IMG/VR virus record: IMGVR_UViG_3300046535_000406
Location: 45,498 to 109,497 of that record
Origin: a virus
Length of the DNA stretch: 64,000 nucleotides
Strand: one strand, 5' to 3'
Positions 1 through 21,737 of the stretch are shown here, piece after piece (position 1 is the first letter of the stretch; each line of letters begins with the position of its first letter). Under the pieces are notes generated by a model. The model searched no databases. It saw only the letters and a list, made by a program, of their open reading frames with translations, and was not told where the DNA came from. The position numbers and the translations under genes were made by a program.

Positions 1-2170
1 GCACGGTCACCCAGTCGCCTTGGTGAAAGCCCGGTTGGACCTTGACCAGCGTCAGGTCCTTCGTCTCCTGAGTGAGGTTCGCCGTCATGGTCGTGACATG
101 GGCCGTCAGGCCGTCGGGAGAGAGGTAGTTCACGACGCCCTCGTCGCCGCCGTAGGTGAGCACGGAGTCGCCGACCTTGATCTGAGGCTTGGGCGTGAGC
201 TTCGCTGGGTTGTAGATTTTCGATGACGGGGCGTTGGGCGACGTGAGCGGGTCGAACGACACCTCGACGGTGGCCGAGTTGACTTGGGCGATCGTGCCGA
301 TGCCGTAGTCGTTCGTCAGCACCTTGTCGCCGACGGCAAACTTGGGCGCAGGCGTGGTCGCCGTGATCCAGCCCTTGTTCACGCTCTCCGGGACCAGCAC
401 GAATGGCGTGCCGTCCACGCCCATCGCCTGCACGTTGCCGGTCACCGGGAACAGCTTGGTGACGGTCAGGTTCTGGCCGCCATAGTTGACGTGTTCGCCG
501 ATGCGGAACGGCGCCGGGTTGGCGTTCTCCAACTCGCTCGGCTCGAACGTCACCTGTGTGGCGTGCTCGTCGTTCAGGATCACTTCGATGTCCAAGCCGT
601 CAGGCGAGATGGCCGTGATCGTGCCCGTCTCGCCGTCGAAGGCGCCACCGATCGCCTTCACGGTGACCTTGCCACCGACCTTGGGACCGACAGCCGCCGA
701 CAACTGGGAGGTTGGGAAGTAGCCCCATACGGGCTCGCCCGGGAACTCGACTCCCCACGTCATCTCGCCGTTCACGATCCCGTGGGTGCCCATGACGGTC
801 CCTGTCTTGCCGTTCACGCTGACGGTGTCTCCGGCCTTGGGGGTAAGCGGGCTCGGGACAGCGGCAGGCGTCAATGTGCCTGCCTTGGCAGAGACGATCA
901 CCTCGTTCTGGGCGAAGGTCCCCGTACTCCCATCGAGCATGGTCACGTCCATCATCTGGCCGTTCAGTGACACGTAGTTCACGGTGCCCATCTGCCCGCC
1001 GTACGTGGCGACATCGCCGGTGGCGTCGCCGCCGCCGGGCTTGACCACGATTTCGTCGCCCACCTTGGCGAGCACAGGCGGCGGAGCACCGACCAGCTTC
1101 AGGTTCACCTGCGGCGACTCAAGCCCCTGCGCTCCACCGAACCCCGGCCACTTCACATTGGCGGTCTTGGATACGTCGTTGATCGCCACGACCGTGCCGC
1201 CCTTGTATGCGGAGTTGCCGTTCATGTGGTCCACGATGTCGCCGACCTTCAGGCCAGCTGGCTCAGCCGGTTTCGCGAGCAGCATGTCCTTGCCGAAGAA
1301 GGGCAGGCCCGGCGCACCGGCAACGTGGTATTCGTCCACGCCGTCGATCGAGGCGATCACGTCCACCTTGCCGTTCGGGAGCACGACCTGATCGCCGATG
1401 CTGAAGGCCGCCTGCTTGGTGGGCTCGGCCACCTTCGTCACGCTGCCCGCCGGAACGATGTCGCCGGGCGCGAAGGTGTTGCCGATCGACAGCTGCACGT
1501 TGCCGTTGTCGAAGGTGTGCATGACCTTGGCGTACTTGCCGTCCGGCTTCAGCGCCCAGTCTCCGACCTTCAGGCCCTCGGGCGGGATCGGCGTGAAGGC
1601 CGGGACCACGCCCACCTTCACGGCGTGCTCGCCGTTCATGTCGGCCCAGAGATTGCCGTCTGAGTCCTTCACGTCGATCAGGCCGTTCGGCTTCACGGCC
1701 ATGACCTCGTACGTGGGCGGACCGGAGCCGACGAACTTCACCTTGTCGCCGACAGCCAGTGTCGTCGGCGGCGGCTCGATCACGCCCTTCGCGAAGGAGA
1801 CGGCAGGCGCGACCTTCGAGAGGTTGGGGTTGGTGGCGGCCTTGTGCACGACCGCGCCGGACTGGGTCGTGATCGTAAGCTCGCCGGACTGGCTGATCTG
1901 GGTGACGGTGCCGGTCTGCATGGGCGTGCCCAAGCTCGGCTTCCCCCACTGCACCTGATCCCCGAGGTTGTAGCCGCCCGCCTTACTGCCCGGGAAGACG
2001 ACGTTCGGGGTGGTCGCGGTGTAGGGCGTCACGTCCTCGGGCTTCAGCTTGAACGTCGTGCCGCTGACGGAGGTGACGCTCAGCTTCCCGTTGTGGTCCA
2101 CGGAGGTCACGAAGCCGTTCAGCCCCTTGCCCCAGACGATGTGATCGCCTGCCGCGTAGCTGCTTGCGAC
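1..2170 (-). repeat. Block B: >=13 tandem KOW/SH3-like protein repeats (continues off window)
   Basis: YAAGDHI, YNLGDQV, LAVGDKV, LKVGDWA, FSIGDQV, FAVGDKV, IKVGDSV, FHQGDWV etc. Confidence 0.75.
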
Positions 2171-5100
2171 GGTGGTGGCAGGGACCGGCTTGGGCGCTGA
2201 CTGGATCGTCGGCGCGATGCCGGGCGCAGCCTTGGCTTTGACTTCGTCGGCCTTCAGGTCCTTCAGCAGGGCCTCGGCGTCGAGTCGGCCCATCTTGATG
2301 TCGCCCTTGGTGGCAGCGGTGCCGTAGGCCACCTCGAACAGGTTGCGCAGGTCGAGCGGCATCCCGCCCACGATCGACGCCCGGACGACGGTGTATTCGA
2401 TGCCCGGCGTGGTTTCCATGGCCTCCGCCATGCGCTTCATGTGGGCCAGCAGCAGGGTGGGCGTGTAGTCGCCTTCGGCGCTTGACACCTCGATGCGCTG
2501 GCCGATCCGCCGCCACTGGACCTTCAGGGCCTGATTGCCGTCGCCGTAGATCGTCTCCTTCAGGGCCTTGTTGGCCGTGCCCGCGAGGTGCACCGGGTGG
2601 ATCGTCTGCTCGATGTCAGGGATCGACGCCAGAGCGATCGCCTGCGGGTCGTAGCCCTCGATGGTGCCGAGTGTCGAGAACGTCGGAGCGACCGGCGGTG
2701 GGGCGACGGTCACGATGGTGGGCGCCTGCCCATCGGCCACCAGCTTGTCCCGGATGGCCTGCACGTCCTCCGGCTTGAACGCCATGTCGTTGGTCTTGGA
2801 CAGCACGCCGCCGTACGCCTTCAGGGTGTCGCGCATCGACAGGCTGGTCGCGAGGAAGGCGTCGGAGTCAATGCGCAGCCGGTACAGGGAAGGCGTCTTG
2901 TCGAACAGGTCCGCCGCGTGCTGGATGAACGCGAACGCGACGTTGTCCGCGATGTGCTCGGATGGCGCGGTCAGCTTCAGAAGCTCCACCCGGTTGCCCA
3001 GTCGGCGGTAGTCGAGCGAGGAACCGCCGCCCCAGACGACGTGCTTGACGCTCGTGTTGGCACCCGACAGGTAGGCCGCCTTCTCGTTCGTCTCCACGCC
3101 CCAGTGCATGGCGAAGTTGTCCACCACGGCGGGGTCGTATCCGGGCACTGAGCCGAAGGCGAGCGTCACCGGGACAGCGTTGGTCGCGGCTCCCACCTCG
3201 GAGTCGAGGTCGGACACGATCTGGTCCACGTCGGACTTCAGCAGCTTCTGGCTCGGGTCCCAGCCAGCCTCCTCCAACCATGTGCGCACGGGACCCGGTT
3301 CGAGGATCGGCCCCTTCAGGTTCAGGTGAGTCAAGGACGGCGTCGCGTCCATGTAGTCGTTGAACTTCCGCATCTGGGCGGCGAACACACCCAGCTGGTC
3401 GCCGGTGGTCTGCCATAGCTCCAAGCGGTTGCCGATGCGCCGCCACTCCGCCGTGCCGCCGTCGATCGCGCCGGTGCCGTAGTGCGTCTGCTTCATGGTC
3501 GTGTTGGCGCCCGACAGGAGCGAGTGGCCGCTGACCGACTTCTCGTACTGGACGGTGTAGAGGGACGCCGTCAGGGGGTCGTACGCGCCGACGGTGACGG
3601 GATTGGGCACTGCCAGCGTCGCGCCGGTCAGCACGCCCGTCTGGGGCGGCACAGGGAGCGCCTGTGGACTGGCGATGCCCGACGCCTGCTTGATGTCCTT
3701 GGCAAGCTGCTGGGCGTCTTCGTAGGGCAGGATGATGCGGGTCTGGGAGCCGCTGAGGTCCAGCGATCCGTTGTAGTGGTCGAGCAGCATGTTCTTCCAG
3801 TGCTCATCGATCACGGACAGCGCCTGATCCTCGTAGATGAGCTTCTGCCCGTAGCTCAGTGACTCACCGGCGTACTGGGTGACGACCATGAAGGTCGTGT
3901 TCTGCATGGCGATAGGCGAGGTCAGGTTCAGGATGCGCATCGGCTTGGTGGCGTTGGGCGGGTAGTCGAGCGTCCCGCCGATGTCGAACTTGCCCGCCTT
4001 CCATGACAGGCTGAGCGCGCCACCTCCGAGGGCCAGCGTGTCTGGGATGGCTCCGATGGCGGCTGCCATCTGGGCGATGTCCTCGGTGGCCCAGCCTGCG
4101 AAGTCAATCGACCCGGCGACCTTGGTGCCACCGGCTGCCAGCGATCCGACGGTGATCAGCTGGGTGTCCGTGGAGAGTTTCGTCGCGAGGTCCGTGGCCT
4201 GCGCAGCCGTCAGCGTCAACCAGCCGTACTGGCTCTCGACCGCGCCCGCCTGCTTCATCAGGTCGCTCAGCGTGGGCATGGCGTTGAGGAACGAGGTGGG
4301 CACGATCAGGTTCTTTGGCGCGATCTTCAGCGGGTCGAGCGGGAACGAGGCGATGCCGGACAGCGCGGCCAGATACGAGGCGTCGCTGCCCAGCGTCGTG
4401 CCGCCGATCGAGTAGAGGACCAGATCGCCTTGCAGGTTCTTCTTCATCGAGGCGTACAGGCCGCCGATCGCGCCGCCGACGGGCTTGACTTGGTACGCAG
4501 ACTCACCCGTGGCGAGTTGGGTCTGCCAGCCCTTGTCGAACTCAGCCTTGCTGACGCCCAGCTTCTGGAACAGGCCGCCGACTGCCCCCGGCGGACGGGT
4601 CATCTTCAGTGTCGCGGGGCTCGTCACGAGCGAAGTGCCGTCGGGGAGCTTCATCACGATCATCCCGCCGGACACGCCCTGCGGCGGAGTGATTTCGCTG
4701 ACCACGCCCGAGGAGCCTGACGGCGTCGTCACGTGGTCGCCGATCTTGAACGGATTGGTGGGTACGACAGGCGTCGGTGCGGCCCCGGCTGGCTTCACCA
4801 GCGCCCAGACAGGCCACTTGTCGATGTGGCCGTCGGCGTATTGGACGGTCGCGCCGTAGAAGTCGAGGCCAGTGATCGACTTGATTTCGACCTTGGTGCC
4901 GCTCGGCAGCAGGGCCGTGTCACCCACGTTCCACGTCAGGAACGGGTGCAGGTTCTTGGCGCTCACGTCCTGCGCGGTCGCGCCGTCGAGCTTGGTGACC
5001 GCGTACGTGCCGTTCGGGTGGATGGCAGAGATGATGCCGTCTTGGCCGTCGAGCGAGGACACGCCGGTGCCAGAGATGTGGACCTTGCCGTCGATCCGCA

Positions 5101-11100: not shown

Positions 11101-14100
11101 AGAGGGTTGACTTCAGCCACGGCTCCAACTCCTGCCGCACCGGCGCGTAGCGATCCGCGCCCAGCCGCGAGTGGAGGTTCATGCCCAGCCATTCGTGGCC
11201 CATCTCGTGGGTCACCACGTCGGAGGCCCACTCGTCGGCGTTGGTCGCGATCTGGCCGCCGACGCTGAACGGGACGTTGGCCTTGTCCCGCAGGAACGCC
11301 TTCTGCAAGGCCGTCGAGTCGGTGAACATGGCGCGGTTCAGGAACACCTTGGAGCCGGGCACGTTGGGGTCGATGCGGGCCACTTCGGCGATCGTGCCCT
11401 TGCCCGGCGCGTAGGTGCGCAGCGCGACGCCACGGAAGCTGGGGATCGTGCCGAAGCGGCTGAACAGCATGTCCATGCGCTTCGCCAGCACCTTGCCGGT
11501 GTCAAACGGCACTTCGAGCAGGCCGCTCCAATCCGTGCCCGGGTAGCGGGCCTCCATGCGCGCCACAAGCTCGGACACGTTGGTGACCTCGGACACGGTC
11601 GCGCCCAGATCAGCCGGTGGCGTGTACGGGAAGGTGCCGCCGTCATCGAGCCACGCCTTCCACGCTGCGCTCGGGTGGTCGGCGATGGTGGTGCGATCTG
11701 CGAACAGGTCCTCGACCGATTGACGCAGGTTGTGCTTGCGGCTCAGCAGGTCGGCCTTGGCGGCGTCCGTGGTGAGCGCGTCACCGACGGCGTTCAGCAA
11801 CTGCTGGTCGGTGACGCCATCGAAGCGATCGAGCGTGGTCGCCACGTCCTGTGGGGTGAGGCGCAGCAGCAGGTCCGGGGAGTGGTCGATCCTGCCGAAC
11901 ATCGACGCATCAGCCCGCTCATAGAAGTCCGTCAGGGATGGCGTCAGGCCGGAGCCCAGCCGGTCGAAGCCGTAGCCCTTGTCGATCGCCCACACGCGCC
12001 CGGAGTCGTAGAGGTAGTTCCCGCCGTGGCCGTCGGCGTTGTGGATCAGGTAGTCAACGAGCCCGTGGCCGAACAGCTGCCGTTCCTCGTCGTGGCCCAG
12101 CACCCGGGCCAGCGTGGCGGCGTCGGGCGCTCGGACCCAGTAGCTCTGGGCGGTGCGAGGCACGAGTGCCTGCCACGCATACCACGGGTTGTCGCCGGTG
12201 CCGAACGCGATCCGCGCAACCGGCGGAGCATCGAGGCCAAACAGGGTGGTGACGCGGGAGCCTGCGACTTCCTCCGAGACGCCGTAGGGCTTCAGCAGGA
12301 ACTCCTGCCCGGTCGGGTCCTTCAGCAGGACACGCGGCGTGGTGCCCTTGCCCAGCTTGTCCGCGCTGCCCCACTTCCAGCCGGGCAGCAGGCCGCCGGT
12401 GCCCCACTTGCTCGGGTCAACGAGCACCTGCTCGGTCGGGAAGGCGCCGAACTTGGTGACCGGGAACGTAATCTCGGGCGTGTGCCACACACCCCCTTCG
12501 CGCATCAGCGACCACGCCTCGGTGTCACCGGCCAGCGTGCCGGGAATGTAGTCGGGCCGGGTCATGGCGGTGAACGCCTCGGCCCAGAACTCCTCGTCCG
12601 AGGTGTCGGCGTAGGACTTCAGCTTCAGCAGGTTGTCGCCCCGGAAGTCAGCCTTGAACGTGTTCCAGCGATCAGCGCCCAGTCGCTGAGAGAGGCGGTT
12701 CGACACGAGGTGGCCGTACTCGTGAGCCCATGCGTCGCCGAAGGTGTTCGAGACGGTGATCTTCCCGGCCAGCCCCATCTCGGGTTCGAGGTTGATGCGC
12801 CCGTCGCTGAAGGCTCGGCCCGCGTAGCCCACGCCGTCGCTTGACTCGATCACGGACAGCGCGCTGTTCAGGGAGCGGTCGATGCCCAGCTGGTCGAATA
12901 GCTCGGCCTTGGCTCGCAGCATGTCCCACTGGGCAGACGAGAACGCCTCGCCCGCGAGGTTCTTCATGCCCGGGAACAGGGCCATGGCGTCGGCCATGGG
13001 GTGCTCCGGCGACGGCTCGAAGGCGGTCTGGACGATGGCGTTGGCGTTGCTGACGTGCGGCTCCGCCGCAAGGGCGCGGAAGCTGGGCATCTCCGGCATC
13101 TCGCGCATCCACGTCAACTGCGGCCCGGGCAGGATCGGGTGCTCGGTGAAGATCGAGGCTCCGGCGGCGATCGTGTCGGGGATGCGCTGTGCCAGCGGTA
13201 GCTCGGCGGACACCGCGCCCAGCCCGTTCAGGAAGTCGGCCAGCCCCTGATTGACCAGCCGGTTGTCGAACTGAAGGCTGAGCCCGCGCTCTGCTGCGCT
13301 CTGAGCGGCCCAGCGGATGGCCGCCACGGTCATTTCCGGCTCGAAGGTGTGTGAAGACGCACCCGTCATCGCGCCGGTGATGAAGCGCAGGTTCTTGGCG
13401 TCCTCCTGATAGACGGCGGAGTAGGTGTTGTCGCCCAGCGCGAACTTCTGGACCAGCACCGGACCGACGCCCGGCTCGCGTATCCCATCCCGAATGTACG
13501 GAGCGTGCAGATCGGGCGGGTGCTTCAGCCACGCAAGCTCCTCGGGCAGGGCCAGCGCCGGGGCGTCAACGACGATCTGGGAGGCCACGTCGGTGTCCCA
13601 CGTGAAGGCGTTCTGGTCGGCCACCGGCTGCTGCGACGGACCGTAGTCAGGCAGGTCGCCCAGCAGCGACGCCACCGGGATGGGCGTGCCGCAGGCGTCG
13701 GCCTCCTTGATCCACACGAGGTTGATCGGTCCCTCGGTGACCATGGACTCGGCGAAGTCGGAGATGCCTGCCAGCGGGTCGCCGCAGACGGTGTCGGGCA
13801 CGTCGTACTCGAAGCGGCACTTGCAGTTGAGTCCGCACTGGGTGTGGCCGGAGCCCGGGAACAGGCCCATGCTCATCAGCGCGTCGTAGCTGTACGGGCT
13901 CATGTCCGATAGCTCGATGCAGTCGTCGCAGTGGTCCGCGTCGCCCAGCGTCCACCAGACTTGGATGATCTGGCCCATGGGCGTCGGCGAGAACACGTGA
14001 TCCTGACCGATGGCCGACTGCACGTTCGCCACGTCGGCAACCGTCTGGGCCGTGGGTGTGGCGCCCGTCACGGGCGCGATGTTGTCGCCCACTCGGAAGG

Positions 14101-15283
14101 CTGCGCGCTCGCCCGCCTGCGCGAGGGAGTGGAAGTCGTTCAGGGCACCGCCGACCAGCAGCGCCCGGAGCCACTTCACCGTGTCCGGCTGTGCGAGGTT
14201 CCACGGGTTCAGGACGTTCTTCACGATCCAGTTCAGCAGGCCGCCCTTGGCGTGGAGCGCGGCATCTGCCGCCACCATGCTGTCGGTGATGTCGCCTTGG
14301 TTGTCGGCGCTCAGCTGGTTCGCGTTGCGAGCACCAGCGGCCCTGCGCGCTGCCCGCATGGCACGGAGAGCTTGGGCGTGCAGGATGGCGTTGACTCGGG
14401 CAGCGGCCTCCTGCGGCGTGATCCTCCCGGATTGGAGCAGCCGGGTGACCACGGCCAGCTGGTTGCGCACGGCGGCCTGAGCACTGGCGCTGATCTTGGC
14501 GATGGCGGCCAGCAGCTTCCTGACTTGGGCCTGCTGCACCAGCGTCTGGTTGGCCTGTGCCAGCTTCGCTCGCTCAGCCGCGATGCGATCGAGGATGACC
14601 GGGATTGACGTGTTCTCGGAGTCGGCCACCGCCCGAGCGAAGCCCTTGCGCATCACGTCGTCCATGCGCACGGCGACCGACTGCAACAGCAGGGCCTCCA
14701 TGGCCGGGGCGTCCTTGGCCTGCTTGGGGTCCTTGCCGTTGGTGGTGGTGATCAGGCGCCCGATCAGGTCGCCCACGGAGCCGACCGGGATGACCGTCTC
14801 GGCGGGTGCCAGCCCGGCGGCCATGAGCGTGCGCTGAATGTCCTGCTGGTCCTGCGTCGAGAGCCGTGACAGGTTGCCCAGCGATCGCTTGCCGACGGTG
14901 TAGGCGTTGCTCGCCTGACGCAGGTAGGCCGCGCTGAGCGCCGCCGTGAACTGGGTGCTGGTCAGCGTGCCAGCCTGAAACTGCTCGATCAGCAGCAGCG
15001 CCGACTCCACGAACTGGCGCACTGCCCGGGACAGGCGCTCATCGGCGCCGGGGTTGCGCTGGGCCGGTCCCCAGCCGATCACCGGCAGCCCTGCGCTCAG
15101 CGCGTAGGCGATCGCCTGAAGGTGGTTGATGTCCCGGTCCGAGGCGACGATGCCCGTCGCGTCCTCTTGGATGGCAACGTCGTACTGGGGGTCGTACCAG
15201 AGAGGATCACTGGCGCTTCGCAGCGCCTCGGTGATCTGTTCCAGCAGCGCCTCGGTGAGGTCCCGGTCAGTCTCCGCGACCAT
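1..15283 (-). CDS. Giant (>=5,094 aa, runs off window) MuF-like minor head protein / polyvalent effector: MuF-type Cys motif, 2 zincins, HipA-like kinase, ART-like, NUDIX, ~29 KOW/SH3-like repeats
   Basis: ATG at 15283 overlaps the portal 3' end, with GAGG upstream. Manual translation stays in one frame to base 2 (MVAETDRDLTEAL...FHQGDWVTV). The ORF track lists no stop-terminated minus ORF in this frame. WWTLGDADHCDDC...HTQCGLNCKCRFEY at 13805-13960 resembles the MuF Cys motif. Confidence 0.88.
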   Translation of the reverse strand, partial: MVAETDRDLTEALLEQITEALRSASDPLWYDPQYDVAIQEDATGIVASDRDINHLQAIAYALSAGLPVIGWGPAQRNPGADERLSRAVRQFVESALLLIEQFQAGTLTSTQFTAALSAAYLRQASNAYTVGKRSLGNLSRLSTQDQQDIQRTLMAAGLAPAETVIPVGSVGDLIGRLITTTNGKDPKQAKDAPAMEALLLQSVAVRMDDVMRKGFARAVADSENTSIPVILDRIAAERAKLAQANQTLVQQAQVRKLLAAIAKISASAQAAVRNQLAVVTRLLQSGRITPQEAAARVNAILHAQALRAMRAARRAAGARNANQLSADNQGDITDSMVAADAALHAKGGLLNWIVKNVLNPWNLAQPDTVKWLRALLVGGALNDFHSLAQAGERAAFRVGDNIAPVTGATPTAQTVADVANVQSAIGQDHVFSPTPMGQIIQVWWTLGDADHCDDCIELSDMSPYSYDALMSMGLFPGSGHTQCGLNCKCRFEYDVPDTVCGDPLAGISDFAESMVTEGPINLVWIKEADACGTPIPVASLLGDLPDYGPSQQPVADQNAFTWDTDVASQIVVDAPALALPEELAWLKHPPDLHAPYIRDGIREPGVGPVLVQKFALGDNTYSAVYQEDAKNLRFITGAMTGASSHTFEPEMTVAAIRWAAQSAAERGLSLQFDNRLVNQGLADFLNGLGAVSAELPLAQRIPDTIAAGASIFTEHPILPGPQLTWMREMPEMPSFRALAAEPHVSNANAIVQTAFEPSPEHPMADAMALFPGMKNLAGEAFSSAQWDMLRAKAELFDQLGIDRSLNSALSVIESSDGVGYAGRAFSDGRINLEPEMGLAGKITVSNTFGDAWAHEYGHLVSNRLSQRLGADRWNTFKADFRGDNLLKLKSYADTSDEEFWAEAFTAMTRPDYIPGTLAGDTEAWSLMREGGVWHTPEITFPVTKFGAFPTEQVLVDPSKWGTGGLLPGWKWGSADKLGKGTTPRVLLKDPTGQEFLLKPYGVSEEVAGSRVTTLFGLDAPPVARIAFGTGDNPWYAWQALVPRTAQSYWVRAPDAATLARVLGHDEERQLFGHGLVDYLIHNADGHGGNYLYDSGRVWAIDKGYGFDRLGSGLTPSLTDFYERADASMFGRIDHSPDLLLRLTPQDVATTLDRFDGVTDQQLLNAVGDALTTDAAKADLLSRKHNLRQSVEDLFADRTTIADHPSAAWKAWLDDGGTFPYTPPADLGATVSEVTNVSELVARMEARYPGTDWSGLLEVPFDTGKVLAKRMDMLFSRFGTIPSFRGVALRTYAPGKGTIAEVARIDPNVPGSKVFLNRAMFTDSTALQKAFLRDKANVPFSVGGQIATNADEWASDVVTHEMGHEWLGMNLHSRLGADRYAPVRQELEPWLKSTLWPALKTTHISKYARSNQHELWAETFAGAIEGMNQPETKQLAAIFDKFYPAKPADPLLGFSPQDLPSVNLTDVMKPKDTGFFKNNTPQAVRDAVLALPEAEREGATKLIRNMATLWKKDVSVVPTDWQVWLIKGSTFEAPTEVLPAAATLWDKKLTPQWSKPEVPLPPAPTAAEFAPEGSAGIVTQLLNPKDEWWLEPNLKPIADAAEWNAVDTGAINKSLRAGEHVADQSVDGTMVKGKDLLDYYDRLSTQAETTAPGILYRGQSLKAGALGKVGDSYVDKAIPFATSSGNKAYNFAIPGGVVQRMHVPKGFRLSAGEATYQVQLPRNLRWRIVRVTDGKELGLAENVSVVDLVPDTGVVPGYQYTGVPFKSFTAPPKPDTPFDGLTFKIDEKAPVLEPGTTVEPIPVEGIAPLNTPPVDWTGHVPEEPPLPEGAVADWQLKDMREAADKAWLRWEAVQSGEAKYAITWSQAESDAAKKAGLFEQKIGSQYYAAKSKADLDALDKAVKGGLDTNSDAFWKDTLGYSQKQLDTIDAYDVAKKGTHSLRAGVVLVEPDGRMWIISPRNRWAGYENTFAKGGVDLNETTAQAAVREAREEMGFSVELDKYLGDFTATDNGSITRYYVAHRTGGGPAWAKTIKETYSVRLGTPSEVRPVLLRYDKPDSRDTKVLDSYLEQAGLPPVAPPITEPPARLLGMSPDDVSGGSPFLHEQLGYDPQIAEASAGVWTPTSMPTGLMKVELPGGPDGTSSVFFRDDEAAKTRRWVLTAFKNDSGVLVAAADPAMAQLRANAMLAMVTNLPKGWDLSIEGSMGFGKADFALLGIPGEVPGFGKTLLIGNGDAVKVAKIMADPTALSADAPTLTLTPAVTDTLAAKLGPADPTIAVGQIVGTNTPTHFATHGVEAPADPFFETYGVAKPAWDTSLFVSEGKAPDEVLSSVHWKIGTTDQPINLFYPNAASSFVRMGVPEWKVTGIETRRAILLKEILRQADKGMEVEVTVSTTETAKLADLFTVLGSKSEGGSWRLDAPQLQLLRKATDQNVSITSLLPPPGITTAAMHPAAQAKSLDQTLGHVVTATPNKLSAQGTTGIGEKWGFDQHEAYNFVNGTGTGIPTPDGPDLKSHPQKQVWTTSKGGDVEFYWDTSPNGNLRLNQVITGENVSEPDVAAALVGQLQYFAGVMQNPALYGVNHLAVRIDDAVMNVLGDKTKQMLTAAGLKPSSVLGGWILSRPNTIGLVHSLLNDLTDVAAVASVAPAAFAIGDTVLHATYGIGTVIDAVAGGTFYVKFPSVTSYFLADQLKPIVKAITSLKPGDMVHTLDNKPALIASISADGQKALVKIGFGEQTFSIADLSLAHQWQIGDLVNYLGNEGSITKIEPDILFLKTTADGKLFATEPWNANLTFIGSQPAWEVGDTLVNGAGVKGAVTFVHADGFIDVHWATGTSPSIHVDPNATTLGVPLTKTGSLGAPTAPAAPSAAGFRVGDKVQSGGLSGTKGVIAAVFPDAGKVTVTWDSGITSTAFDPTHPNVMLKHVEPSATFKVGDHVANMWDATGTITNVADGKVGITWDISPGAGAGLLIDPTTVGLKHVPDVGVTQPPLKVGDTVIEQISGKGQMVTVQTIDPVGTLALVELPDGSTTWMAVSSLVKPGFSSPAWAVGTATPVAAVTTFVQGDVVKTAFGVGKVNKVLPGDVIEVTLPSGAYKSFTVGELSSVAPQVGDAVIHPTLGHATITKIDTGITPVQIQVKAVGSEAWAWANPDNVVKVGDKLQHGAIVQTIDANQVIAVTGGAKFTSPVSEVQKDLKLGKYPGLTPGTGAVTTAAEPWKVGDQALWQPPGFAHPEQVTIQAVSPSGLITVKGAAANAFPVAPTELARVPAATTEPFKVGDAVLVTKGAAFSGQVGSITHVGLLSSGETYYDVALPGAPYVSFKAEELAPAPGTAPGVMAPGGVPAGITVGAKVEIEGLTGTVTQIAPNGILTIAVDTGGSTTAYGIGDAKVVMVQHGPPLRIDGKVHISGTGVSSLDGQDGIISAIHPNGTYAVTKLDGATAQDVSAKNLHPFLTWNVGDTALLPSGTKVEIKSITGLDFYGATVQYADGHIDKWPVWALVKPAGAAPTPVVPTNPFKIGDHVTTPSGSSGVVSEITPPQGVSGGMIVMKLPDGTSLVTSPATLKMTRPPGAVGGLFQKLGVSKAEFDKGWQTQLATGESAYQVKPVGGAIGGLYASMKKNLQGDLVLYSIGGTTLGSDASYLAALSGIASFPLDPLKIAPKNLIVPTSFLNAMPTLSDLMKQAGAVESQYGWLTLTAAQATDLATKLSTDTQLITVGSLAAGGTKVAGSIDFAGWATEDIAQMAAAIGAIPDTLALGGGALSLSWKAGKFDIGGTLDYPPNATKPMRILNLTSPIAMQNTTFMVVTQYAGESLSYGQKLIYEDQALSVIDEHWKNMLLDHYNGSLDLSGSQTRIILPYEDAQQLAKDIKQASGIASPQALPVPPQTGVLTGATLAVPNPVTVGAYDPLTASLYTVQYEKSVSGHSLLSGANTTMKQTHYGTGAIDGGTAEWRRIGNRLELWQTTGDQLGVFAAQMRKFNDYMDATPSLTHLNLKGPILEPGPVRTWLEEAGWDPSQKLLKSDVDQIVSDLDSEVGAATNAVPVTLAFGSVPGYDPAVVDNFAMHWGVETNEKAAYLSGANTSVKHVVWGGGSSLDYRRLGNRVELLKLTAPSEHIADNVAFAFIQHAADLFDKTPSLYRLRIDSDAFLATSLSMRDTLKAYGGVLSKTNDMAFKPEDVQAIRDKLVADGQAPTIVTVAPPPVAPTFSTLGTIEGYDPQAIALASIPDIEQTIHPVHLAGTANKALKETIYGDGNQALKVQWRRIGQRIEVSSAEGDYTPTLLLAHMKRMAEAMETTPGIEYTVVRASIVGGMPLDLRNLFEVAYGTAATKGDIKMGRLDAEALLKDLKADEVKAKAAPGIAPTIQSAPKPVPATTVASSYAAGDHIVWGKGLNGFVTSVDHNGKLSVTSVSGTTFKLKPEDVTPYTATTPNVVFPGSKAGGYNLGDQVQWGKPSLGTPMQTGTVTQISQSGELTITTQSGAVVHKAATNPNLSKVAPAVSFAKGVIEPPPTTLAVGDKVKFVGSGPPTYEVMAVKPNGLIDVKDSDGNLWADMNGEHAVKVGVVPAFTPIPPEGLKVGDWALKPDGKYAKVMHTFDNGNVQLSIGNTFAPGDIVPAGSVTKVAEPTKQAAFSIGDQVVLPNGKVDVIASIDGVDEYHVAGAPGLPFFGKDMLLAKPAEPAGLKVGDIVDHMNGNSAYKGGTVVAINDVSKTANVKWPGFGGAQGLESPQVNLKLVGAPPPVLAKVGDEIVVKPGGGDATGDVATYGGQMGTVNYVSLNGQMMDVTMLDGSTGTFAQNEVIVSAKAGTLTPAAVPSPLTPKAGDTVSVNGKTGTVMGTHGIVNGEMTWGVEFPGEPVWGYFPTSQLSAAVGPKVGGKVTVKAIGGAFDGETGTITAISPDGLDIEVILNDEHATQVTFEPSELENANPAPFRIGEHVNYGGQNLTVTKLFPVTGNVQAMGVDGTPFVLVPESVNKGWITATTPAPKFAVGDKVLTNDYGIGTIAQVNSATVEVSFDPLTSPNAPSSKIYNPAKLTPKPQIKVGDSVLTYGGDEGVVNYLSPDGLTAHVTTMTANLTQETKDLTLVKVQPGFHQGDWVTV
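2250..3600 (-). repeat. Three copies of an unrecognised ~145-aa domain
   Basis: Each copy has YDP...AN..[MVL]K...[YW]G.G...[WY]RR[IL]G[NQ]R[LVI]E...TP[SG][LI]. Confidence 0.75.
4600..7350 (-). repeat. Block A: ~16 tandem KOW/SH3-like protein repeats
   Basis: Recurrent [FWL]-x-[VI]-G-D-x-V units of about 55 aa (FAIGDTV, WQIGDLV, FRVGDKV, FKVGDHV, FKIGDHV etc.). Confidence 0.75.
9090..9470 (-). other. NUDIX hydrolase domain of giant protein
   Basis: Intact Nudix box GGVDLNETTAQAAVREAREEMGF at about 9302-9370. Confidence 0.9.
10040..10500 (-). other. VIP2/C3-like ADP-ribosyltransferase-fold domain (catalytic Glu apparently substituted)
   Basis: INKSLR...LYRG...FATSS...EATYQVQLPRNLRWRI. Confidence 0.7.
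10980..11560 (-). other. Zincin metallopeptidase domain 2 of giant protein
   Basis: VVTHEMGH...ISKYARSNQHELWAETF. Confidence 0.82.
11730..12380 (-). other. HipA/PI3-4-kinase-like domain of giant protein
   Basis: KLGKGTTP...FLLKP...EVAGS...DYLIHNADGHGGNYL...AIDKG. Confidence 0.8.
12560..12900 (-). other. Zincin metallopeptidase domain 1 of giant protein
   Basis: WAHEYGH...SYADTSDEEFWAEAF. Confidence 0.8.
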
Positions 15284-17342: not shown

Positions 17343-17485
17343 CACCAGCACCTGAAGTGCGCCCCATCCTGAACGTCGAAGCTCGGCACGCCCGGATGGG
17401 GCAGAACGCCGCTCCTCAAGAACCGGGGTTGCCGGTCGCGGGGAAAGCCTATCACGGGCGTCCAGACTGCTGGTACTGTGCGCGC

Positions 17486-17713
17486 ATGACCCGCCCCCAT
17501 CCACGCCAAGCGGACGCGCTTGCGCTCGCCTCGGGCATCGCCATCGTCTCCGTGGCCCTCATTGCCGTCGCAGACATCGTCGCCCACGGATCACTCGAAC
17601 CGGCGGTGATGACGCTCGTGGCCTCCACGATCGCGCCTCTGACGCCCGCCCTGATCATCCGCTACGGGATCAACCCGAACCGTAGCGGGCACGAGCAGAG
17701 CCCGCCCCAGTGA
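17486..17713 (+). CDS. Small 2-TM membrane protein (holin-like?)
   Basis: Two hydrophobic segments; GTGA-coupled to the next gene. Confidence 0.5.
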   Translation: MTRPHPRQADALALASGIAIVSVALIAVADIVAHGSLEPAVMTLVASTIAPLTPALIIRYGINPNRSGHEQSPPQ

Positions 17714-18027
17714 ACATTCCCGACTGGCTCGCGTGGGTCCTGCTGGCGATCCCCGTATTCACGTCGGTCGTGTTCGTGCGCATGGCGTGGCGAGCAGGGA
17801 AGGACATGCTCGGGCTGAAGGCGACGACGCTGCCGCTGGTGGAGGCGCGGCTGGTGGTCGGCTGCGGGTTGGCCCTGATCAGCCTCGGTAACGTCCAGAC
17901 CGGGATCGGCTACATCGCCCAGATCGGGAGTGCGACGGACATCAACATCGCCGTCGGCGCCATCGTGGTCCGGGGAGCCCTCCTGCCGGTCGCGCTGTAC
18001 GTCCTGCTGCGGTATCGGGGCGGCTGA
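17710..18027 (+). CDS. Small 3-TM membrane protein
   Basis: Three hydrophobic stretches in 105 aa. Confidence 0.6.
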   Translation: MNIPDWLAWVLLAIPVFTSVVFVRMAWRAGKDMLGLKATTLPLVEARLVVGCGLALISLGNVQTGIGYIAQIGSATDINIAVGAIVVRGALLPVALYVLLRYRGG

Positions 18028-18271
18028 GGAAGTTAGCACCCGGGGGTTGCTACCGGAGTCCCAGAGCGGCGTTCTGATCGCTCGCCCCAGACCTTCCTGC
18101 CGGTCAGAGCTTCCCTATCACCTCAGTTGCGGCTACCGCAGAGACAGTTGGCGTCCAGCACGCTCGGGCCACATGCAACCCGGGCTGCGCCCTCCCGTGA
18201 GACGGCGCGAAGCTGACGCCCGTCGTCATTAGCGCCGGGCTCCGCCAGTGTACCGCAGGGAGTCAATAGGT

Positions 18272-20934: not shown

Positions 20935-20940
20935 CGAGGG

Positions 20941-21384
20941 TTACCCGGCTGCGACTTGCAGCAACCCTGCCACGTCCACCGTCACGTTCACGGCACCGCC
21001 ACCACCGGCGAAGGGGAAGCCGCCGCTGTCCACGAACGCAATCGGGATGTCGTTCGCACCACCGTTCACGTTCTTGACGATCACGTATCCCTGCGCCTGA
21101 CGGGTGCCGGGGCCGACCGTGGTGCCGAACGTGAAGTCAGCGGCGTCGGTCCATGAGAGGTGTGTGCTGTTGTTCTCCGCAGAGGCGGACATGCTCAGGG
21201 TCGGGCGGGAGTAGCCCGAGCCGTCGAACTCATCCAGTGTCGTGAAGCCGCCGACGGTCGCCTTGTCGCGCTCCGTGTCGGCGGTCGTGTTGGTCATCAC
21301 GAGGATCGCCCGGAGGTCAGACGTGCCGGGGTTCAGGGCCGCCGTGTTCAGCAACTGCAACGCATGGTCGTACCAGAAGCTCAC
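20941..21384 (-). CDS. Putative minor tail/virion structural protein
   Basis: E.DGSGYSRPTL...DAADFTF pattern typical of small phage structural proteins. Confidence 0.55.
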   Translation of the reverse strand: MSFWYDHALQLLNTAALNPGTSDLRAILVMTNTTADTERDKATVGGFTTLDEFDGSGYSRPTLSMSASAENNSTHLSWTDAADFTFGTTVGPGTRQAQGYVIVKNVNGGANDIPIAFVDSGGFPFAGGGGAVNVTVDVAGLLQVAAG

Positions 21385-21386
21385 GG

Positions 21387-21737
21387 TCAGTCCCTTCCGT
21401 AGGTCAAGTGCACGACGGCGGCAGCCGACGTGGAGCGGACATGAGCGGTGTCGTCAGCGCCGACACCGCTCGCCTTCGTGGGATACGTGATGGACGCTCC
21501 GGCACCCTGCCAGTAGCCGATCCCGTTCGTCGTCGCCTCGCCCATCGCCACGGCGCACTCAGCCGAGCAGTAGACCGTGACGTAGGTCGTGCCAGCTGGC
21601 ATCGCGCCGCTGGCCGGGTAGTCGGTGTTCGCGTTGGTGCAGGTGACCGCCTCGTGTGCACTCCGGCCCTTCAGGAGAGGGTTGGCCGTCACGGCGGCAC
21701 CCGTTACCTCGACCCCGTACAGCGGCTGCGAACCCAC
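21387..21737 (-). CDS. Small beta-rich putative structural protein
   Basis: GGAG RBS; Ala/Thr-rich; first gene of the structural cluster. Confidence 0.5.
   Translation of the reverse strand: MGSQPLYGVEVTGAAVTANPLLKGRSAHEAVTCTNANTDYPASGAMPAGTTYVTVYCSAECAVAMGEATTNGIGYWQGAGASITYPTKASGVGADDTAHVRSTSAAAVVHLTYGRD

What the first reader, a model, noticed from the sequence alone, without database searches (positions are those of the whole stretch)
1..15283. Hidden >5,000-aa MuF-anchored polyvalent head protein
Seen: one uninterrupted minus-strand frame from ATG 15283 to the window edge, absent from the ORF track. Domain order is helical N-terminus, MuF-type Cys motif, zincin, kinase, zincin, ART-like, NUDIX, unknown modules, KOW array, triple repeat, KOW array. 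Known: MuF genes follow portals and can carry C-terminal toxin or polyvalent domains. Inference: a virion-packaged multi-effector protein of exceptional size that is injected to act before phage genes are expressed.
Basis: partly seen in the sequence, partly recalled or inferred. Interest (0 to 1): 0.85.

Follow-up and report, generated by a model that had tools for sequence, protein, structure and literature searches.

The report
Giant 6,703-residue phage head effector protein
An uncultured 110-kb tailed phage encodes, right after its portal gene, one real 6,703-residue (709 kDa) protein that strings proteases, kinases, a NUDIX hydrolase and about 40 small barrel domains behind a head-anchoring module; it is the largest example so far of the known but untested class of "polyvalent" proteins that phages are thought to pack in the capsid and inject.

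Summary
The minus-strand frame runs from ATG 15283 off the window edge and 1,609 codons further to a TGA. That gives 6,703 aa, 18% of a 109.5-kb IMG/VR phage contig. It is uniformly coding, and at least 14 independent metagenomic relatives of 4,800–7,742 aa exist.

The gene overlaps the portal stop by 17 nt. Portal → giant → protease/scaffold → capsid order recurs in a second phage.

- **Confirmed domains:** two lethal-factor-like zincins, two HipA/CtkA/PI4K-like kinases (fold Z 12.8), and an intact NUDIX.
- **Other repeats:** about 40 Tudor/KOW-type barrels, and a 155-aa unknown module present four times rather than three.
- **Motif-level leads only:** the "ART-like" cassette and an invariant R…S…ExE C-terminal domain.
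- **N-terminal Cys module:** it does not match Pfam MuF (PF04233 or PF06152). It belongs to phrog_24776 and sits in the MuF slot after portals in other phages. Its fold neighbours are MuF-like minor capsid proteins.

All 7 cysteines lie in that module. The other 6,635 residues have none (P≈1e-29), and this holds across the family.

Packaging and injection remain inference. This scan has met smaller giants of this class on other DNA. Verdict: a new variant of a known kind.

The parts
1..15283 (-). The giant gene: the first 5,094 of its 6,703 codons. It continues 4,829 nt past the left window edge to a TGA at contig 40669-40671.
   Evidence: Open frame. GC3 is 0.87-0.94 throughout and P(no stop) is about 6e-68. 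It is collinear at about 50% identity with a 5,452-aa relative, P0003.
15267..17504 (-). Portal gene. Its TGA overlaps the giant's start by 17 nt.
   Evidence: phrog_10963 portal, E 2.3e-34. A 45%-identical portal precedes the 5,712-aa giant of a second phage. Junction sequence read.
14000..15283 (-). Helical N-terminal region (aa 13-440). Residues 60-165 are conserved in all giants.
   Evidence: BLAST blocks 60-165 at 35-53% identity in the giants. The model of aa 301-530 is helical up to the Cys knuckle.
13685..13999 (-). Cys-knuckle module (aa 441-545): W-x-L-G-x3-H-C-x2-C ... P-G-x-G-x-T-x-C-x3-C-x-C. It holds all 7 cysteines of the protein and belongs to the MuF-slot family phrog_24776.
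   Evidence: About 150 short relatives share only this module; their invariant residues include five Cys, plus a near-invariant His. 67 of 82 are phrog_24776 and none is PF04233. AF2 pLDDT 85-97 here. Named BFVD neighbours are MuF-like or minor capsid proteins. Cys positions.
12440..13042 (-). Zincin-like metallopeptidase 1 (aa 760-960; HEYGH at aa 866-870, window 12710-12724).
   Evidence: Pfam ATLF E 0.0014, below cut-off. HExGH and the E..WAE helix are invariant in three copies. The profile's top six PDB hits are anthrax lethal factor, best E 0.0046.
11525..12397 (-). Atypical protein kinase 1 (aa 975-1265), of the HipA/CtkA/PI3-4K type. Catalytic motif DGHGGN...IDK at aa 1096.
   Evidence: AF2 pLDDT 74, pTM 0.71. 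Foldseek PDB gives 84 hits at E<=1e-3, top CtkA at 4.4e-5. VIA-wide gives PI4KIIalpha Z 12.8, CtkA Z 11.9, HipA Z 10.8 and HipT Z 10.4. It is a paralogue of aa 6184-6412.
10925..11527 (-). Zincin-like metallopeptidase 2 (aa 1265-1465; HEMGH at aa 1371).
   Evidence: Paralogue of zincin 1. Pfam Peptidase_Mx E 0.0045, below cut-off. Invariant HExGH plus Glu helix.
9920..10642 (-). ART-like variable cassette (aa 1560-1800). It is absent from the closest giant relative.
   Evidence: No counterpart in P0003. No word-sharing homologues. The nearest ESM Atlas clusters are all PF03496/PF01129 ARTs at score 0.93. No Pfam or PDB sequence match. A lead only.
9056..9976 (-). The most conserved block of the family (aa 1782-2088). 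Its C-terminal part is a NUDIX hydrolase (aa 1951-2030, window 9230-9469) with an intact Nudix box, GGVDLNETTAQAAVREAREEMGF.
   Evidence: PF00293 E 3.7e-10, 40 bits against a cut-off of 21. phrog_1185. 40-52% identity in every full-length giant. Invariant columns.
7346..9052 (-). Unknown modules (aa 2090-2658).
   Evidence: No Pfam hit at E<=10. Partly conserved in P0003, P0005 and P0006.
4613..7345 (-). Barrel array 1: 15 detected Tudor/KOW-type SH3-like repeats of about 50-65 aa (aa 2659-3569).
   Evidence: Repeat HMM. 37-repeat alignment A4. The profile's PDB hits are PHF20/SMN Tudor, CarD/CdnL, PcrA Tudor, NusG and L24 KOW at E 0.008-0.1. Pfam CarD_TRCF_RID 25.9 bits and SH3_15.
3611..4612 (-). 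Unknown linker region (aa 3570-3903).
   Evidence: No Pfam hit at E<=10.
2210..3610 (-). Three tandem copies of a 155-aa module of unknown function (aa 3904-4370). A fourth copy lies at aa 6016-6166, outside the window.
   Evidence: Module HMM finds four copies here and 1-5 in each of 16 relatives. The Atlas gives nothing (0.82). No Pfam match.
1..2161 (-). Barrel array 2, window part (aa 4387-5106 of 4387-5779; 23 detected repeats in all).

Beyond the window edge (contig coordinates):
- rest of array 2, to 43480
- fourth 155-aa module, 42319-42771
- kinase 2, 41452-42294
- conserved C-terminal R...S...GExE domain, 40672-41451
   Evidence: Repeat HMM. Kinase 2 gives Pfam PI3_PI4_kinase E 0.0016 and HipA_C, and its motif is kept in 13 of 14 giants. 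C-terminal invariants are R6578, R6592, G6611, E6660 and E6662.

Best explanation
This is one real gene for a 6,703-residue polyvalent head protein of an uncultured tailed phage.

**Shown**
- It is translated from a start that overlaps the portal stop.
- Its architecture has three parts: a conserved N-terminal anchor, a variable enzymatic and repeat-rich body, and a conserved C-terminal cassette.
- The anchor is a helical region plus a Cys/His knuckle of family phrog_24776. This family sits in the gene slot that MuF/gp7 occupies in other phages.
- The body holds two lethal-factor-like zincins, a HipA/CtkA/PI4K-like kinase, an ART-like cassette, an intact NUDIX, four copies of an unknown 155-aa module and about 40 Tudor/KOW-type barrels.
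- The C-terminal cassette is 155-aa module, then a second kinase, then a domain with invariant R...S...GExE.

**Inferred mechanism**
1. The N-terminal module binds the portal during procapsid assembly, as SPP1 gp7 does. A few copies are therefore enclosed in the head.
2. This route does not use the separate 'DHFYGAWxGG..GGH' tag that this phage puts on its protease and small cargo proteins.
3. At infection the chain leaves through the portal and tail with the DNA.
4. Its enzymes act on host targets before phage genes are expressed: phosphorylation, nucleotide or cap hydrolysis, and possibly ADP-ribosylation.
5. The zincins may first cut the chain into pieces.

The body contains no cysteine at all, and the same holds across the family. 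That fits a chain that must stay free of disulfides in the virion and be threaded, at least partly unfolded, through a narrow channel.
For: **The gene is real**
- establish the frame.
- At least 14 independent giants of 4,805-7,742 aa share the N-terminus, the NUDIX block and the C-terminus.

**Head-module context**
- Portal (2.3e-34), then the giant, then a protease-like/scaffold gene, cement and major capsid protein (6e-39).
- The same order holds in IMGVR_UViG_3300049717_000066, with a 45%-identical portal, a 5,712-aa giant and a 60%-identical capsid protein.

**MuF-slot evidence for the anchor**
- In the cultured Synechococcus phage Sc-Yong805-2 the order is terminase, portal, Cys-module protein, prohead protease, capsid.
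- I scanned 27 genes lying upstream of Cys-module genes in IMG/VR. Of the 23 PHROG families they match, 17 are portal or terminase families.
- Named BFVD fold neighbours are 'head morphogenesis', 'MuF-like minor capsid' or 'minor capsid' proteins.
- The W...H...L...PG...NC[KR]C motif is collinear with SPP1 gp7.

**Enzymes**
- NUDIX scores above the Pfam cut-off and keeps a complete Nudix box.
- The kinase fold scores Z 12.8 and Foldseek 4e-5, with catalytic motifs kept.
- The zincins keep HExGH plus the Glu helix, and the profile hits lethal factor.

**Cysteine pattern**
- There are 0 Cys in 6,635 residues, against 1.0% phage-wide (P about 1e-29).
- 10 of 14 giants have exactly 7 Cys, all in the knuckle.

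**Literature**
- gp7 is targeted to the procapsid interior by the portal, and gp7-like proteins carry toxins (PMC6316719, PMC5576092).
- Polyvalent proteins over 2,000 aa with lethal-factor-like zincins are predicted to be packaged and delivered (PMC5512222).
Against: - No Pfam MuF match, whether PF04233 or PF06152, for this protein or for 82 short relatives.
- Profile-profile probability against the gp7 family is only 4.6%.
- The individual fold matches to MuF-like proteins are weak: E 0.1-1 and TM 0.2-0.43. No solved structure resembles the module.
- There is no virion proteomics, no cultured relative of the giant, and no known host.
- A 709-kDa chain is twice the size of N4 vRNAP, the largest protein shown to be ejected. 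How it would be packed and expelled is unknown.
- About a third of the protein has no assignable function.
- The ART calls rest on motifs and language-model features only.
Confidence: 0.6

Rival explanations
1. It is a polyprotein precursor. The giant chain is only a delivery or assembly format. Its own zincins, or the prohead protease, cut it inside the capsid or in the host into a dozen separate proteins, and these are the functional units. This is a variant of the main reading and is compatible with it.
For: - Two zincin modules with intact HExGH and Glu helix lie between other domains.
- Iyer et al. propose exactly this autoprocessing role for zincins in polyvalent proteins (PMC5512222).
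- The phage's other cargo genes show a conserved x-E-[SAG] site just before each tag. That would fit cleavage after Glu by a T4-type prohead protease (recalled from T4 biology, not checked here).
Against: - No cleavage sites were identified or tested in the giant.
- [LIV]-x-E-[ASG] motifs are expected by chance about 25 times in 6,700 residues, so they carry no information.
- Zincins could equally target host proteins.
Confidence: 0.3
2. It is a retained structural head component. The protein is packaged but not ejected. Its roughly 40 Tudor/KOW-type barrels and helical regions organise or tether the packed DNA (an 'inner body' or spool). On this reading the enzyme domains act inside the capsid or are relics.
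For: - It lies in the head module and has a portal-slot anchor.
- About 35-40% of the chain is non-enzymatic repeats of a fold class that often binds nucleic acids or proteins.
- SPP1 gp7 itself binds DNA, according to the title of reference 84 cited in PMC6316719.
Against: - The catalytic motifs of NUDIX, both kinases and both zincins are conserved across distant relatives. That argues for enzymatic function on substrates such as ATP and host proteins, which are not available inside a capsid.
- Cassettes such as the ART-like module vary between relatives, as effector arsenals do.
Confidence: 0.12
3. It is not a virion protein. It would be a late-expressed cytoplasmic multi-enzyme, or a toxin released at lysis against competing bacteria, and it merely happens to be encoded next to the portal.
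For: - No direct evidence of packaging exists.
- MuF membership by HMM is not met.
- The role of MuF toxins in inter-bacterial competition is discussed in PMC5576092.
Against: - The start overlaps the portal stop.
- The portal-to-giant order is conserved between phages whose portals are only 45% identical.
- The Cys-module family sits after portals in many phages.
- The family-wide absence of cysteine is shared with the phage's two largest tail-region genes, 1,910 and 1,568 aa.
Confidence: 0.07
4. It is an assembly or annotation artefact: several genes fused by sequencing errors, or a chimeric or collapsed repeat assembly.
For: It comes from a metagenome-derived contig with no read data available. 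The protein is repeat-rich.
Against: - GC3 is 0.87-0.94 in all 26 windows, with stops in the other frames.
- No DNA-level tandem repeats exist, and the protein repeats are only 15-35% identical.
- It is collinear with a 5,452-aa protein from another assembly, and 13 further giants come from the Logan, ENA, NCBI and JGI sources.
Confidence: 0.01

Closest known systems
Polyvalent proteins of phages and conjugative elements (Iyer, Burroughs, Anand, de Souza, Aravind 2017, PMC5512222)
   Same: - One very large polypeptide (over 2,000 aa) that combines many enzymatic and binding domains.
- Encoded in the virion module of a portal-terminase phage.
- Lethal-factor-like zincin metallopeptidases interspersed between the other domains.
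- Kinase, ART and NUDIX-type partner domains.
- Predicted to be packaged and delivered with the DNA.
   Different: - Three times the size the paper cites as 'large'.
- The anchor is a Cys-knuckle family that Pfam MuF models do not recognise.
- About 40 Tudor/KOW-type barrels, a 155-aa module present four times, and a conserved module-kinase-ExE tail define a separate, unnamed family.
- The kinase is of the HipA/CtkA/PI4K type. The paper's text search returned no SH3-type repeat arrays.
- The body is cysteine-free.
MuF superfamily and MuF polymorphic toxins (Jamet et al. 2017, PMC5576092; SPP1 gp7, Mu gpF; MuF1 = PF04233, MuF2 = PF06152, MuF3 and MuF4)
   Same: - The gene lies immediately downstream of the portal.
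- An N-terminal head-anchoring region is followed by C-terminal effector domains.
- The module ends in P-G...N-C-[KR]-C, as gp7 does.
- Predicted-fold neighbours are MuF-like minor capsid proteins.
   Different: - No HMM match to MuF1 or MuF2.
- The gp7 segment D-x-R-T-R-x-x-H-x-x-L-D-G is replaced by H-C-x-D-C, with five invariant Cys.
- MuF toxins usually carry one toxin domain and occur in temperate phages with an immunity gene. Here there are well over 50 modules, counting the roughly 40 barrels, no evidence of temperate life and no conserved immunity-like neighbour.
- MuF3 and MuF4 profiles could not be tested.
Coliphage N4 virion RNA polymerase (about 3,500 aa) and the P23-45 tape-measure/RNAP fusion (5,002 aa) (PMC13434306; bioRxiv 10.1101/2022.12.01.518664)
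   Same: Giant virion-carried proteins that are expelled into the host to act before phage gene expression. According to Iyer et al., N4-type vRNAPs are also fused to zincin domains.
   Different: - No RNA polymerase domain was found here.
- The protein is anchored in the head by a portal-slot module, not in the tail.
- It is almost twice the size of N4 vRNAP.
- Ejection is not demonstrated.
HipA/HipT toxin kinases and H. pylori CtkA; type II PI4-kinases
   Same: The protein-kinase-like fold has the same atypical catalytic core: D-x-H-x-x-N, then I-D-K. Scores are Z 10.4-12.8 over about 200 aligned residues.
   Different: - Sequence identity is only 10-18%.
- It is embedded, in two copies, in a giant phage protein.
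- The substrate is unknown.
- No HipB/HipS-like partner was identified.
CarD/CdnL N-terminal domain, PcrA/UvrD C-terminal Tudor domain, NusG/L24 KOW
   Same: Small SH3-like barrels that open with the 'x-V-G-D-x-V-x...G-x-G-x-V' hairpin. They are the best, though weak, profile matches of the repeats.
   Different: - Here there are about 40 tandem copies with Pro-rich linkers.
- The matches cover only the first two or three strands.
- There is no evidence of RNA polymerase or ribosome binding.

Membership tests
MuF superfamily (Jamet et al. 2017) | HMM match to MuF1 (Pfam PF04233, Phage_Mu_F) | tested here: not met
   No hit for aa 341-560 at E<=10. 0 of 82 short relatives match at E<=0.01. No six-frame hit in the contig at E<=10, while the control genomes do hit.
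MuF superfamily (Jamet et al. 2017) | HMM match to MuF2 (Pfam PF06152, Phage_min_cap2) | tested here: not met
   The same Pfam-A scans did not list PF06152.
MuF superfamily (Jamet et al. 2017) | Profile-profile homology to MuF1 or MuF2 (the criterion used to admit MuF3 and MuF4) | tested here: inconclusive
   hhalign of a 158-sequence family alignment against 42 gp7-type PF04233 proteins gives probability 4.6% and P 0.0087. The alignment is collinear, W...H...L...PG...NC[KR]C. The reference profile was narrow (Neff 3.6). MuF3 and MuF4 profiles were not available.
MuF superfamily (Jamet et al. 2017) | Gene immediately downstream of the portal gene, in the packaging/head module | tested here: met
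   17-nt overlap with the portal stop. The same holds in a second phage, in a cultured cyanophage for the short form, and for upstream genes of IMG/VR family members, which are portal or terminase.
MuF superfamily (Jamet et al. 2017) | Fold shared with MuF-like minor capsid proteins | tested here: inconclusive
   The AF2 model has pLDDT 76. The best BFVD hits are uncharacterised phage proteins (E 1.8e-4). The named hits are almost all MuF-like, head-morphogenesis or minor-capsid proteins, but at E 0.1-1 and TM 0.2-0.43. PDB has no comparable structure.
MuF superfamily (Jamet et al. 2017) | Binds the portal and is present in the capsid in a few copies | not testable with these tools
   Needs virion proteomics or a portal pull-down.
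Polyvalent proteins (Iyer et al. 2017) | Many unrelated enzymatic and binding domains in one large polypeptide of a phage or conjugative element | tested here: met
   6,703 aa with zincin x2, kinase x2, NUDIX, ART-like segment(s), repeats and unknown modules.
Polyvalent proteins (Iyer et al. 2017) | Zincin-like MPTase: HExxH helix plus Glu on the following helix, related to lethal factor | tested here: met
   HExGH and E..WAE are invariant in three copies. The top six PDB profile hits are lethal factor, best E 0.0046. Pfam ATLF E 0.0014, below the gathering score.
Polyvalent proteins (Iyer et al. 2017) | Encoded among virion genes of a portal-terminase phage | tested here: met
   Portal, protease-like gene, cement, capsid and large terminase were all identified.
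Polyvalent proteins (Iyer et al. 2017) | Delivered into the recipient cell with the DNA | not testable with these tools
   This is a prediction in the original paper too.
NUDIX hydrolases (PF00293) | Pfam match above the gathering score, plus the Nudix box G-x5-E-x7-R-E-U-x-E-E-x-G-U | tested here: met
   40.4 bits against a cut-off of 21.1, E 3.7e-10. The box G-GVDLN-E-TTAQAAV-RE-A-R-EE-M-G-F was read. These residues are invariant in 16 sequences.
Protein-kinase-like fold, HipA/CtkA/PI3-4K branch | Bilobal kinase fold with catalytic D-x-H-x-x-N and a metal-binding Asp | tested here: met
   Foldseek gives 84 PDB hits at E<=1e-3, all kinases. VIA-wide gives Z 12.8 for 4pla, 11.9 for 3akj, 10.8 for 4pu3 and 10.4 for 7ab3. 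Motifs are kept in both copies and across the giants. Pfam HipA_C and PI3_PI4_kinase hit only below cut-off.
ADP-ribosyltransferases (R-S-E type; PF03496/PF01129) | Sequence or fold match plus an R / S-T-S / E-x-E catalytic triad, for aa 1560-1800 | tested here: inconclusive
   The Atlas feature neighbours are all ART clusters at 0.93, but share under 170 features. No Pfam hit at E<=10, no PDB hit and no homologues. YRG and ATSS motifs are present, but a clear ExE is not; the sequence there reads 'YQVQLPR'.
ADP-ribosyltransferases (R-S-E type) | The same criteria, for the conserved C-terminal domain (aa 6456-6715) | tested here: inconclusive
   R6578, R6592 and G-E6660-x-E6662 are invariant, and a conserved hydrophobic-[ST]-S strand is present in 14 giants. 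No Pfam match, no PDB match and no stand-alone homologue.
KOW / Tudor / SH3-like small barrels | Profile match to a KOW, Tudor or CarD-RID family | tested here: inconclusive
   The whole-protein CarD_TRCF_RID score is 25.9 bits against a cut-off of 23, but it comes from partial stretches. The 37-repeat profile hits PHF20 Tudor at 0.008, CdnL at 0.011, PcrA Tudor at 0.018 and NusG KOW at 0.03. The fold class is consistent; no single family is established.

The most novel reading that the evidence does not exclude
The giants would define a fifth, Zn-knuckle branch of portal-slot (MuF-like) anchors. The roughly 40 cysteine-free Tudor/KOW-type barrels would be functional, not filler. One possibility is that they form a bead-on-a-string tether long enough to span the tail, so that the chain is threaded out ahead of or with the DNA while still held at the portal. 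The other is that they are CarD/PcrA-like RNA-polymerase-binding (or ribosome-binding) modules. In that case the injected protein would act as a multivalent trap, gathering host transcription or translation machinery next to its own kinases, NUDIX and ART-like domains.
Probability: 0.12. Interest if true: 0.85.

Novelty: new variant of a known kind. Interest (0 to 1): 0.62.

Why it matters
Polyvalent head proteins are a computational prediction with almost no experimental backing. This family pushes the idea to an extreme: 4,800–7,742 residues, up to twice the size of N4 vRNAP, the largest protein shown to be ejected.

It raises concrete, testable questions:
- How is a 700-kDa chain recruited by the portal, stored beside pressurised DNA, and passed through a channel a few nanometres wide?
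- Is the strict absence of cysteine outside the anchor a signature of ejected proteins, and could it be used to find others?
- Is the phrog_24776 Cys knuckle a hidden branch of MuF that current models miss?

The conserved NUDIX block and the module-kinase-ExE tail are candidate core activities of early host takeover. This phage also runs a second, tag-based cargo system alongside the giant, which allows a comparison of two loading routes in one virion.

Tried and rejected
- **My own error.** Two references (proteins 1 and 5) were out of frame, so their blank results are void. I repeated them in frame.
- **Annotated phages.** No DNA or protein match for the region or the N-terminus. The terminase is at most 30% identical to any cultured phage, so no host could be assigned. 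No tRNAs were found.
- **Bacterial and archaeal genomes.** Only generic NUDIX cores matched, so no prophage relative was found.
- **IMG/VR.** The single-protein scan found nothing. The alignment scan found one true relative. Alignments A2 and A10 were too divergent for back-translation, so I replaced them with a degenerate DNA motif scan.
- **The look-up of encoding contigs.** The contexts of most giant relatives could therefore not be read.
- **MuF by HMM, profile-profile comparison and solved structures.** No supported match.
- **ART-like cassette.** No homologues and no PDB match.
- **155-aa module.** The Atlas gave nothing above chance.
- **C-terminal and pre-NUDIX blocks.** No PDB match, and no stand-alone homologue of the C-terminal domain.
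- **Database names.** Every cluster looked up is unnamed or labelled 'hypothetical protein'.
- **Loading through the DHFYGAW tag.** Rejected, because the giant has no copy.
- **Conserved immunity or partner gene after the giant.** Rejected for the 107-aa and 95-aa ORFs, which have no counterpart in the second phage.
- **Assembly artefact.** Rejected.


Full report
**Observation.** This is correct. The ORF listing gives one frame, window 2..15319, 5,106 codons, open at the 3' end. The window is the right-hand 64 kb of a single 109,497-bp IMG/VR virus record, classed linear and about 87% complete by CheckV. Extending leftwards, the frame ends at a TGA at contig 40669-40671, which makes 6,715 codons from the first TTG.

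The likely start is ATG 15283. GAGG lies 6 nt upstream, the start overlaps the portal gene's TGA (15269-15267) by 17 nt, and the relatives begin with the same 'MV...' N-terminus. This gives 6,703 aa, 709 kDa and pI 5.2.

GC3 is 0.87-0.94 in all 26 windows of 250 codons, and the other two frames carry stops throughout. The chance of no stop is about 6e-68, and no DNA tandem repeat exists. The gene takes up 18% of the contig.

**Context.** Nearly all genes lie on the minus strand. Upstream is the portal (phrog_10963, 2.3e-34). Downstream come small ORFs, a 769-aa protein with a weak prohead-protease match, a cement-like protein and the major capsid protein (PF25209, 6e-39). The large terminase (phrog_38, 2.6e-62), SbcCD-like nuclease subunits and a DNA methyltransferase lie further along the window. 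So this is a tailed phage, and the giant sits in its head module. No annotated phage resembles it in DNA or in the N-terminal protein. The terminase is at most 30% identical to cultured phages of unrelated hosts. The host is unknown.

**Relatives.** An exhaustive HMMER search with the first 588 residues found 177 proteins. Fourteen are full-length giants of 4,805-7,742 aa. The closest, P0003 (5,452 aa), is collinear at about 50% identity over the whole length. All full-length giants share these parts:
- residues 60-165
- the Cys module and the roughly 200 residues after it
- one or more kinase-like copies
- the block aa 1780-2090, at 40-52% identity, the best conserved part
- a C-terminal block, present in all but one of them

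The middles differ in content and order. The clusters looked up come from the Logan, ENA, NCBI and JGI assemblies, and none carries a functional name. One relative, of 5,712 aa, lies on IMGVR_UViG_3300049717_000066. There a 45%-identical portal ends 26 nt inside its start. Downstream, the homologues of the 157-aa ORF, the protease/scaffold, the cement-like gene and a 60%-identical capsid protein follow in the same order. No bacterial or archaeal genome holds more than a generic NUDIX core.

**Is the anchor a MuF domain?** By the usual criterion it is not.
- Pfam finds neither PF04233 nor PF06152 in aa 341-560 at E<=10, nor in any of 82 short relatives.
- A six-frame PF04233 scan of the contig is blank, while the control genomes respond.
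- I built a reference set of 42 PF04233 proteins from SPP1 gp7. hhalign against a 158-sequence alignment of the module gave probability 4.6% and P 0.0087.
- That alignment is nevertheless collinear. W aligns with W, the H-C-x-D-C segment with gp7's R-T-R-x-x-H-x-x-L-D-G, P-G with P-G, and N-C-K-C with N-C-R-C.

The module is a family of its own. About 150 proteins of 60-1,000 aa share only this part, and five Cys are invariant among them, with a near-invariant His. Of 82 scanned, 67 belong to phrog_24776, which has no assigned function. A few also match 'minor head protein', 'head morphogenesis', 'DNA pilot' or 'DarB-like' families, or the polyvalent-type InPase domain.

Three lines tie this family to the MuF role.
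1. **A cultured phage.** In Synechococcus phage Sc-Yong805-2 a 226-aa member lies in the order terminase, portal, member, prohead protease, capsid.
2. **Uncultured phages.** A degenerate DNA scan for W-x-L-G-x3-H-C-x-D-C returned 80 IMG/VR loci. Thirty-two carry the full Cys signature, and 27 have a sizeable gene ending at their start. Of the 23 PHROG families those upstream genes match, 17 are portal or large-terminase families.
3. **Predicted fold.** An AlphaFold model of aa 301-530 has pLDDT 76 and pTM 0.67, rising to 85-97 over the knuckle. Its best BFVD matches are uncharacterised phage proteins (1.8e-4). Its named matches are nearly all 'head morphogenesis', 'MuF-like minor capsid', 'minor capsid' or 'capsid maturation protease (MuF fusion)' proteins, each weak at E 0.1-1 and TM 0.2-0.43. 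PDB offers nothing comparable.

Jamet et al. admitted MuF3 and MuF4 to the superfamily on just such grounds: position after the portal plus HMM-HMM similarity (PMC5576092). I therefore read the module as a MuF-slot anchor and a probable distant MuF relative. It is not an established member.

**The enzymes.**
- **NUDIX.** PF00293 scores 40 bits against a cut-off of 21. The Nudix box is complete and invariant across 16 sequences.
- **Kinases.** The two kinase-like modules are paralogues. Pfam gives only sub-threshold PI3_PI4_kinase and HipA_C hits. A model of aa 975-1265 (pLDDT 74, pTM 0.71) matches kinases only: 84 Foldseek hits at E<=1e-3, led by H. pylori CtkA. VIA-wide gives PI4KIIalpha Z 12.8 (206 residues aligned, 3.7 Å), CtkA Z 11.9, HipA Z 10.8 and HipT Z 10.4. 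The catalytic D-x-H-x-x-N...I-D-K motif is kept in both copies, and in the C-terminal copy of 13 of 14 giants.
- **Zincins.** The two HExxH modules are paralogues. With a third copy from the relative, they keep HExGH and an E..WAE helix invariant. Their profile's six best PDB hits are all anthrax lethal factor's catalytic domain, best E 0.0046. Iyer et al. describe the same relationship for the zincins of polyvalent proteins (PMC5512222).
- **ART-like cassette.** The segment aa 1560-1800 has no counterpart in P0003, no detectable homologue, and no Pfam or PDB match. Only language-model neighbours, all ART clusters at 0.93, and YRG/ATSS motifs support it.
- **C-terminal domain.** The last 260 residues have invariant R6578, R6592, G6611 and G-E-x-E in 14 giants. 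That is again the ART residue order.

**The non-enzymatic parts.** A repeat HMM finds 38 units of about 50-65 aa, 15 in aa 2659-3569 and 23 in aa 4387-5779. Gaps suggest a few more degenerate copies. The units are 13-35% identical, with the consensus x-V-G-D-x-V...G-x-V...G...V...G...P. The profile's best PDB hits are PHF20 and SMN Tudor, CdnL/CarD, PcrA Tudor, and NusG and L24 KOW, at E 0.008-0.1. Pfam hints at CarD_TRCF_RID, SH3_15, YajC and PcrA_UvrD_tudor. The fold class, an SH3-like barrel of Tudor/KOW type, is consistent. No single family is established.

A fourth copy lies at aa 6016-6166, just before kinase 2, and every relative searched has 1-5 copies. Its function is unknown. Regions aa 2090-2658, 3570-3903 and about 5780-6015 remain unassigned.

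**An unexpected property.** The protein has seven cysteines, all between aa 464 and 543. The other 6,635 residues have none, although the phage's remaining genes average 1.0% Cys (P about 1e-29). Ten of 14 giants have exactly seven Cys with the same spacing and none elsewhere. Three others carry an insertion inside the knuckle. The phage's two other largest genes, of 1,910 and 1,568 aa in the tail region, are also Cys-free.

**Mechanism.** Shown: this is a real, conserved, portal-coupled gene with a conserved N-terminal anchor, a conserved NUDIX block, a conserved module-kinase-ExE tail, and a variable middle of enzymes and barrels. Inferred, by analogy with SPP1 gp7: the anchor recruits a few copies into the procapsid. 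gp7 is brought into the procapsid by the portal, and without it only about 25% of virions are infectious (PMC6316719). The chain would then leave with the DNA, and the enzymes would act early on host targets, perhaps after cleavage by the zincins.

The phage also has a second candidate loading route. Eleven copies of a DH[FY]YGAWxGG..GGH tag occur on the protease/scaffold gene and on small effector-like genes. The giant has none.

The rivals are a retained structural role, a non-virion role, and a pure polyprotein precursor. The last is compatible with the main reading. I rank them lower in the Rival explanations section for the reasons given there. An artefact is excluded for practical purposes.

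**Comparison and novelty.** This is a member of the class of polyvalent proteins (PMC5512222), and by position it resembles MuF-anchored toxins (PMC5576092). It differs in scale: 6,703 aa, with relatives up to 7,742. For comparison, N4 vRNAP has about 3,500 aa and the P23-45 tape measure has 5,002. It also differs in its unrecognised Cys-knuckle anchor, its barrel arrays, the 155-aa module, its conserved tail cassette and its Cys-free body.

Earlier follow-ups in this scan describe smaller giants of the same class on other DNA, of 1,920-5,183 aa. Two report a kinase followed by a DarT-like ART. That agrees with the tail seen here, but it is not independent proof. I rate the finding a new variant of a known kind.

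Noticed in passing
window 29157-31192 (four copies); contig 25598-37144, left of the window (seven copies): A conserved tag, DH[FY]YGAWxGG(x)AS(x)GGH(P), occurs 11 times in the contig. It sits on the 769-aa protease/scaffold gene and on several small effector-like genes. Each copy is preceded by an x-E-[SAG] site. This looks like a capsid-targeting signal with a cleavage site. The giant lacks it.
   Followed up: partly
contig 3492-9224 and 17596-22302 (left of the window; L002, L003): The phage's two other largest genes (1,910 and 1,568 aa, probably a tail fibre and a tape measure) contain no cysteine at all, like the body of the giant. The rest of the proteome averages 1.0% Cys.
   Followed up: partly
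proteins P0003, P0021 and P0026 (relatives): Three giants carry an insertion of about 270 aa inside the Cys knuckle, between the third Cys and the C-x3-C-x-C cluster. The knuckle therefore tolerates a whole inserted domain.
   Followed up: no
contig 40009-40616 (52 nt downstream of the giant's stop; L004:4010-4617): Two small ORFs (107 and 95 aa) follow the giant. They have no counterpart in the second phage, although the next genes are conserved. They could be a variable partner or immunity-type pair, or they could be spurious.
   Followed up: partly
window 28504-29952: This 482-aa tag-bearing protein matches phrog_2859 (4e-26). The same family also turns up in two of the 82 short Cys-module proteins scanned. 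Cargo domains therefore seem to be exchanged between the two loading formats.
   Followed up: no
window 41514-43169 versus 15267-17504: The large terminase lies about 24 kb from the portal, separated by dozens of small genes. This is unusual for a head-packaging module.
   Followed up: no
window 18272-20934: Two genes just upstream of the portal (475 and 431 aa) have no PHROG match. The second has a weak RHS-repeat hit (E 5e-4, below the cut-off).
   Followed up: no
loci L111-L190 (IMG/VR): Cys-module genes of 464-691 aa whose upstream neighbour is a terminase may be portal-module fusions. This was not checked individually.
   Followed up: no
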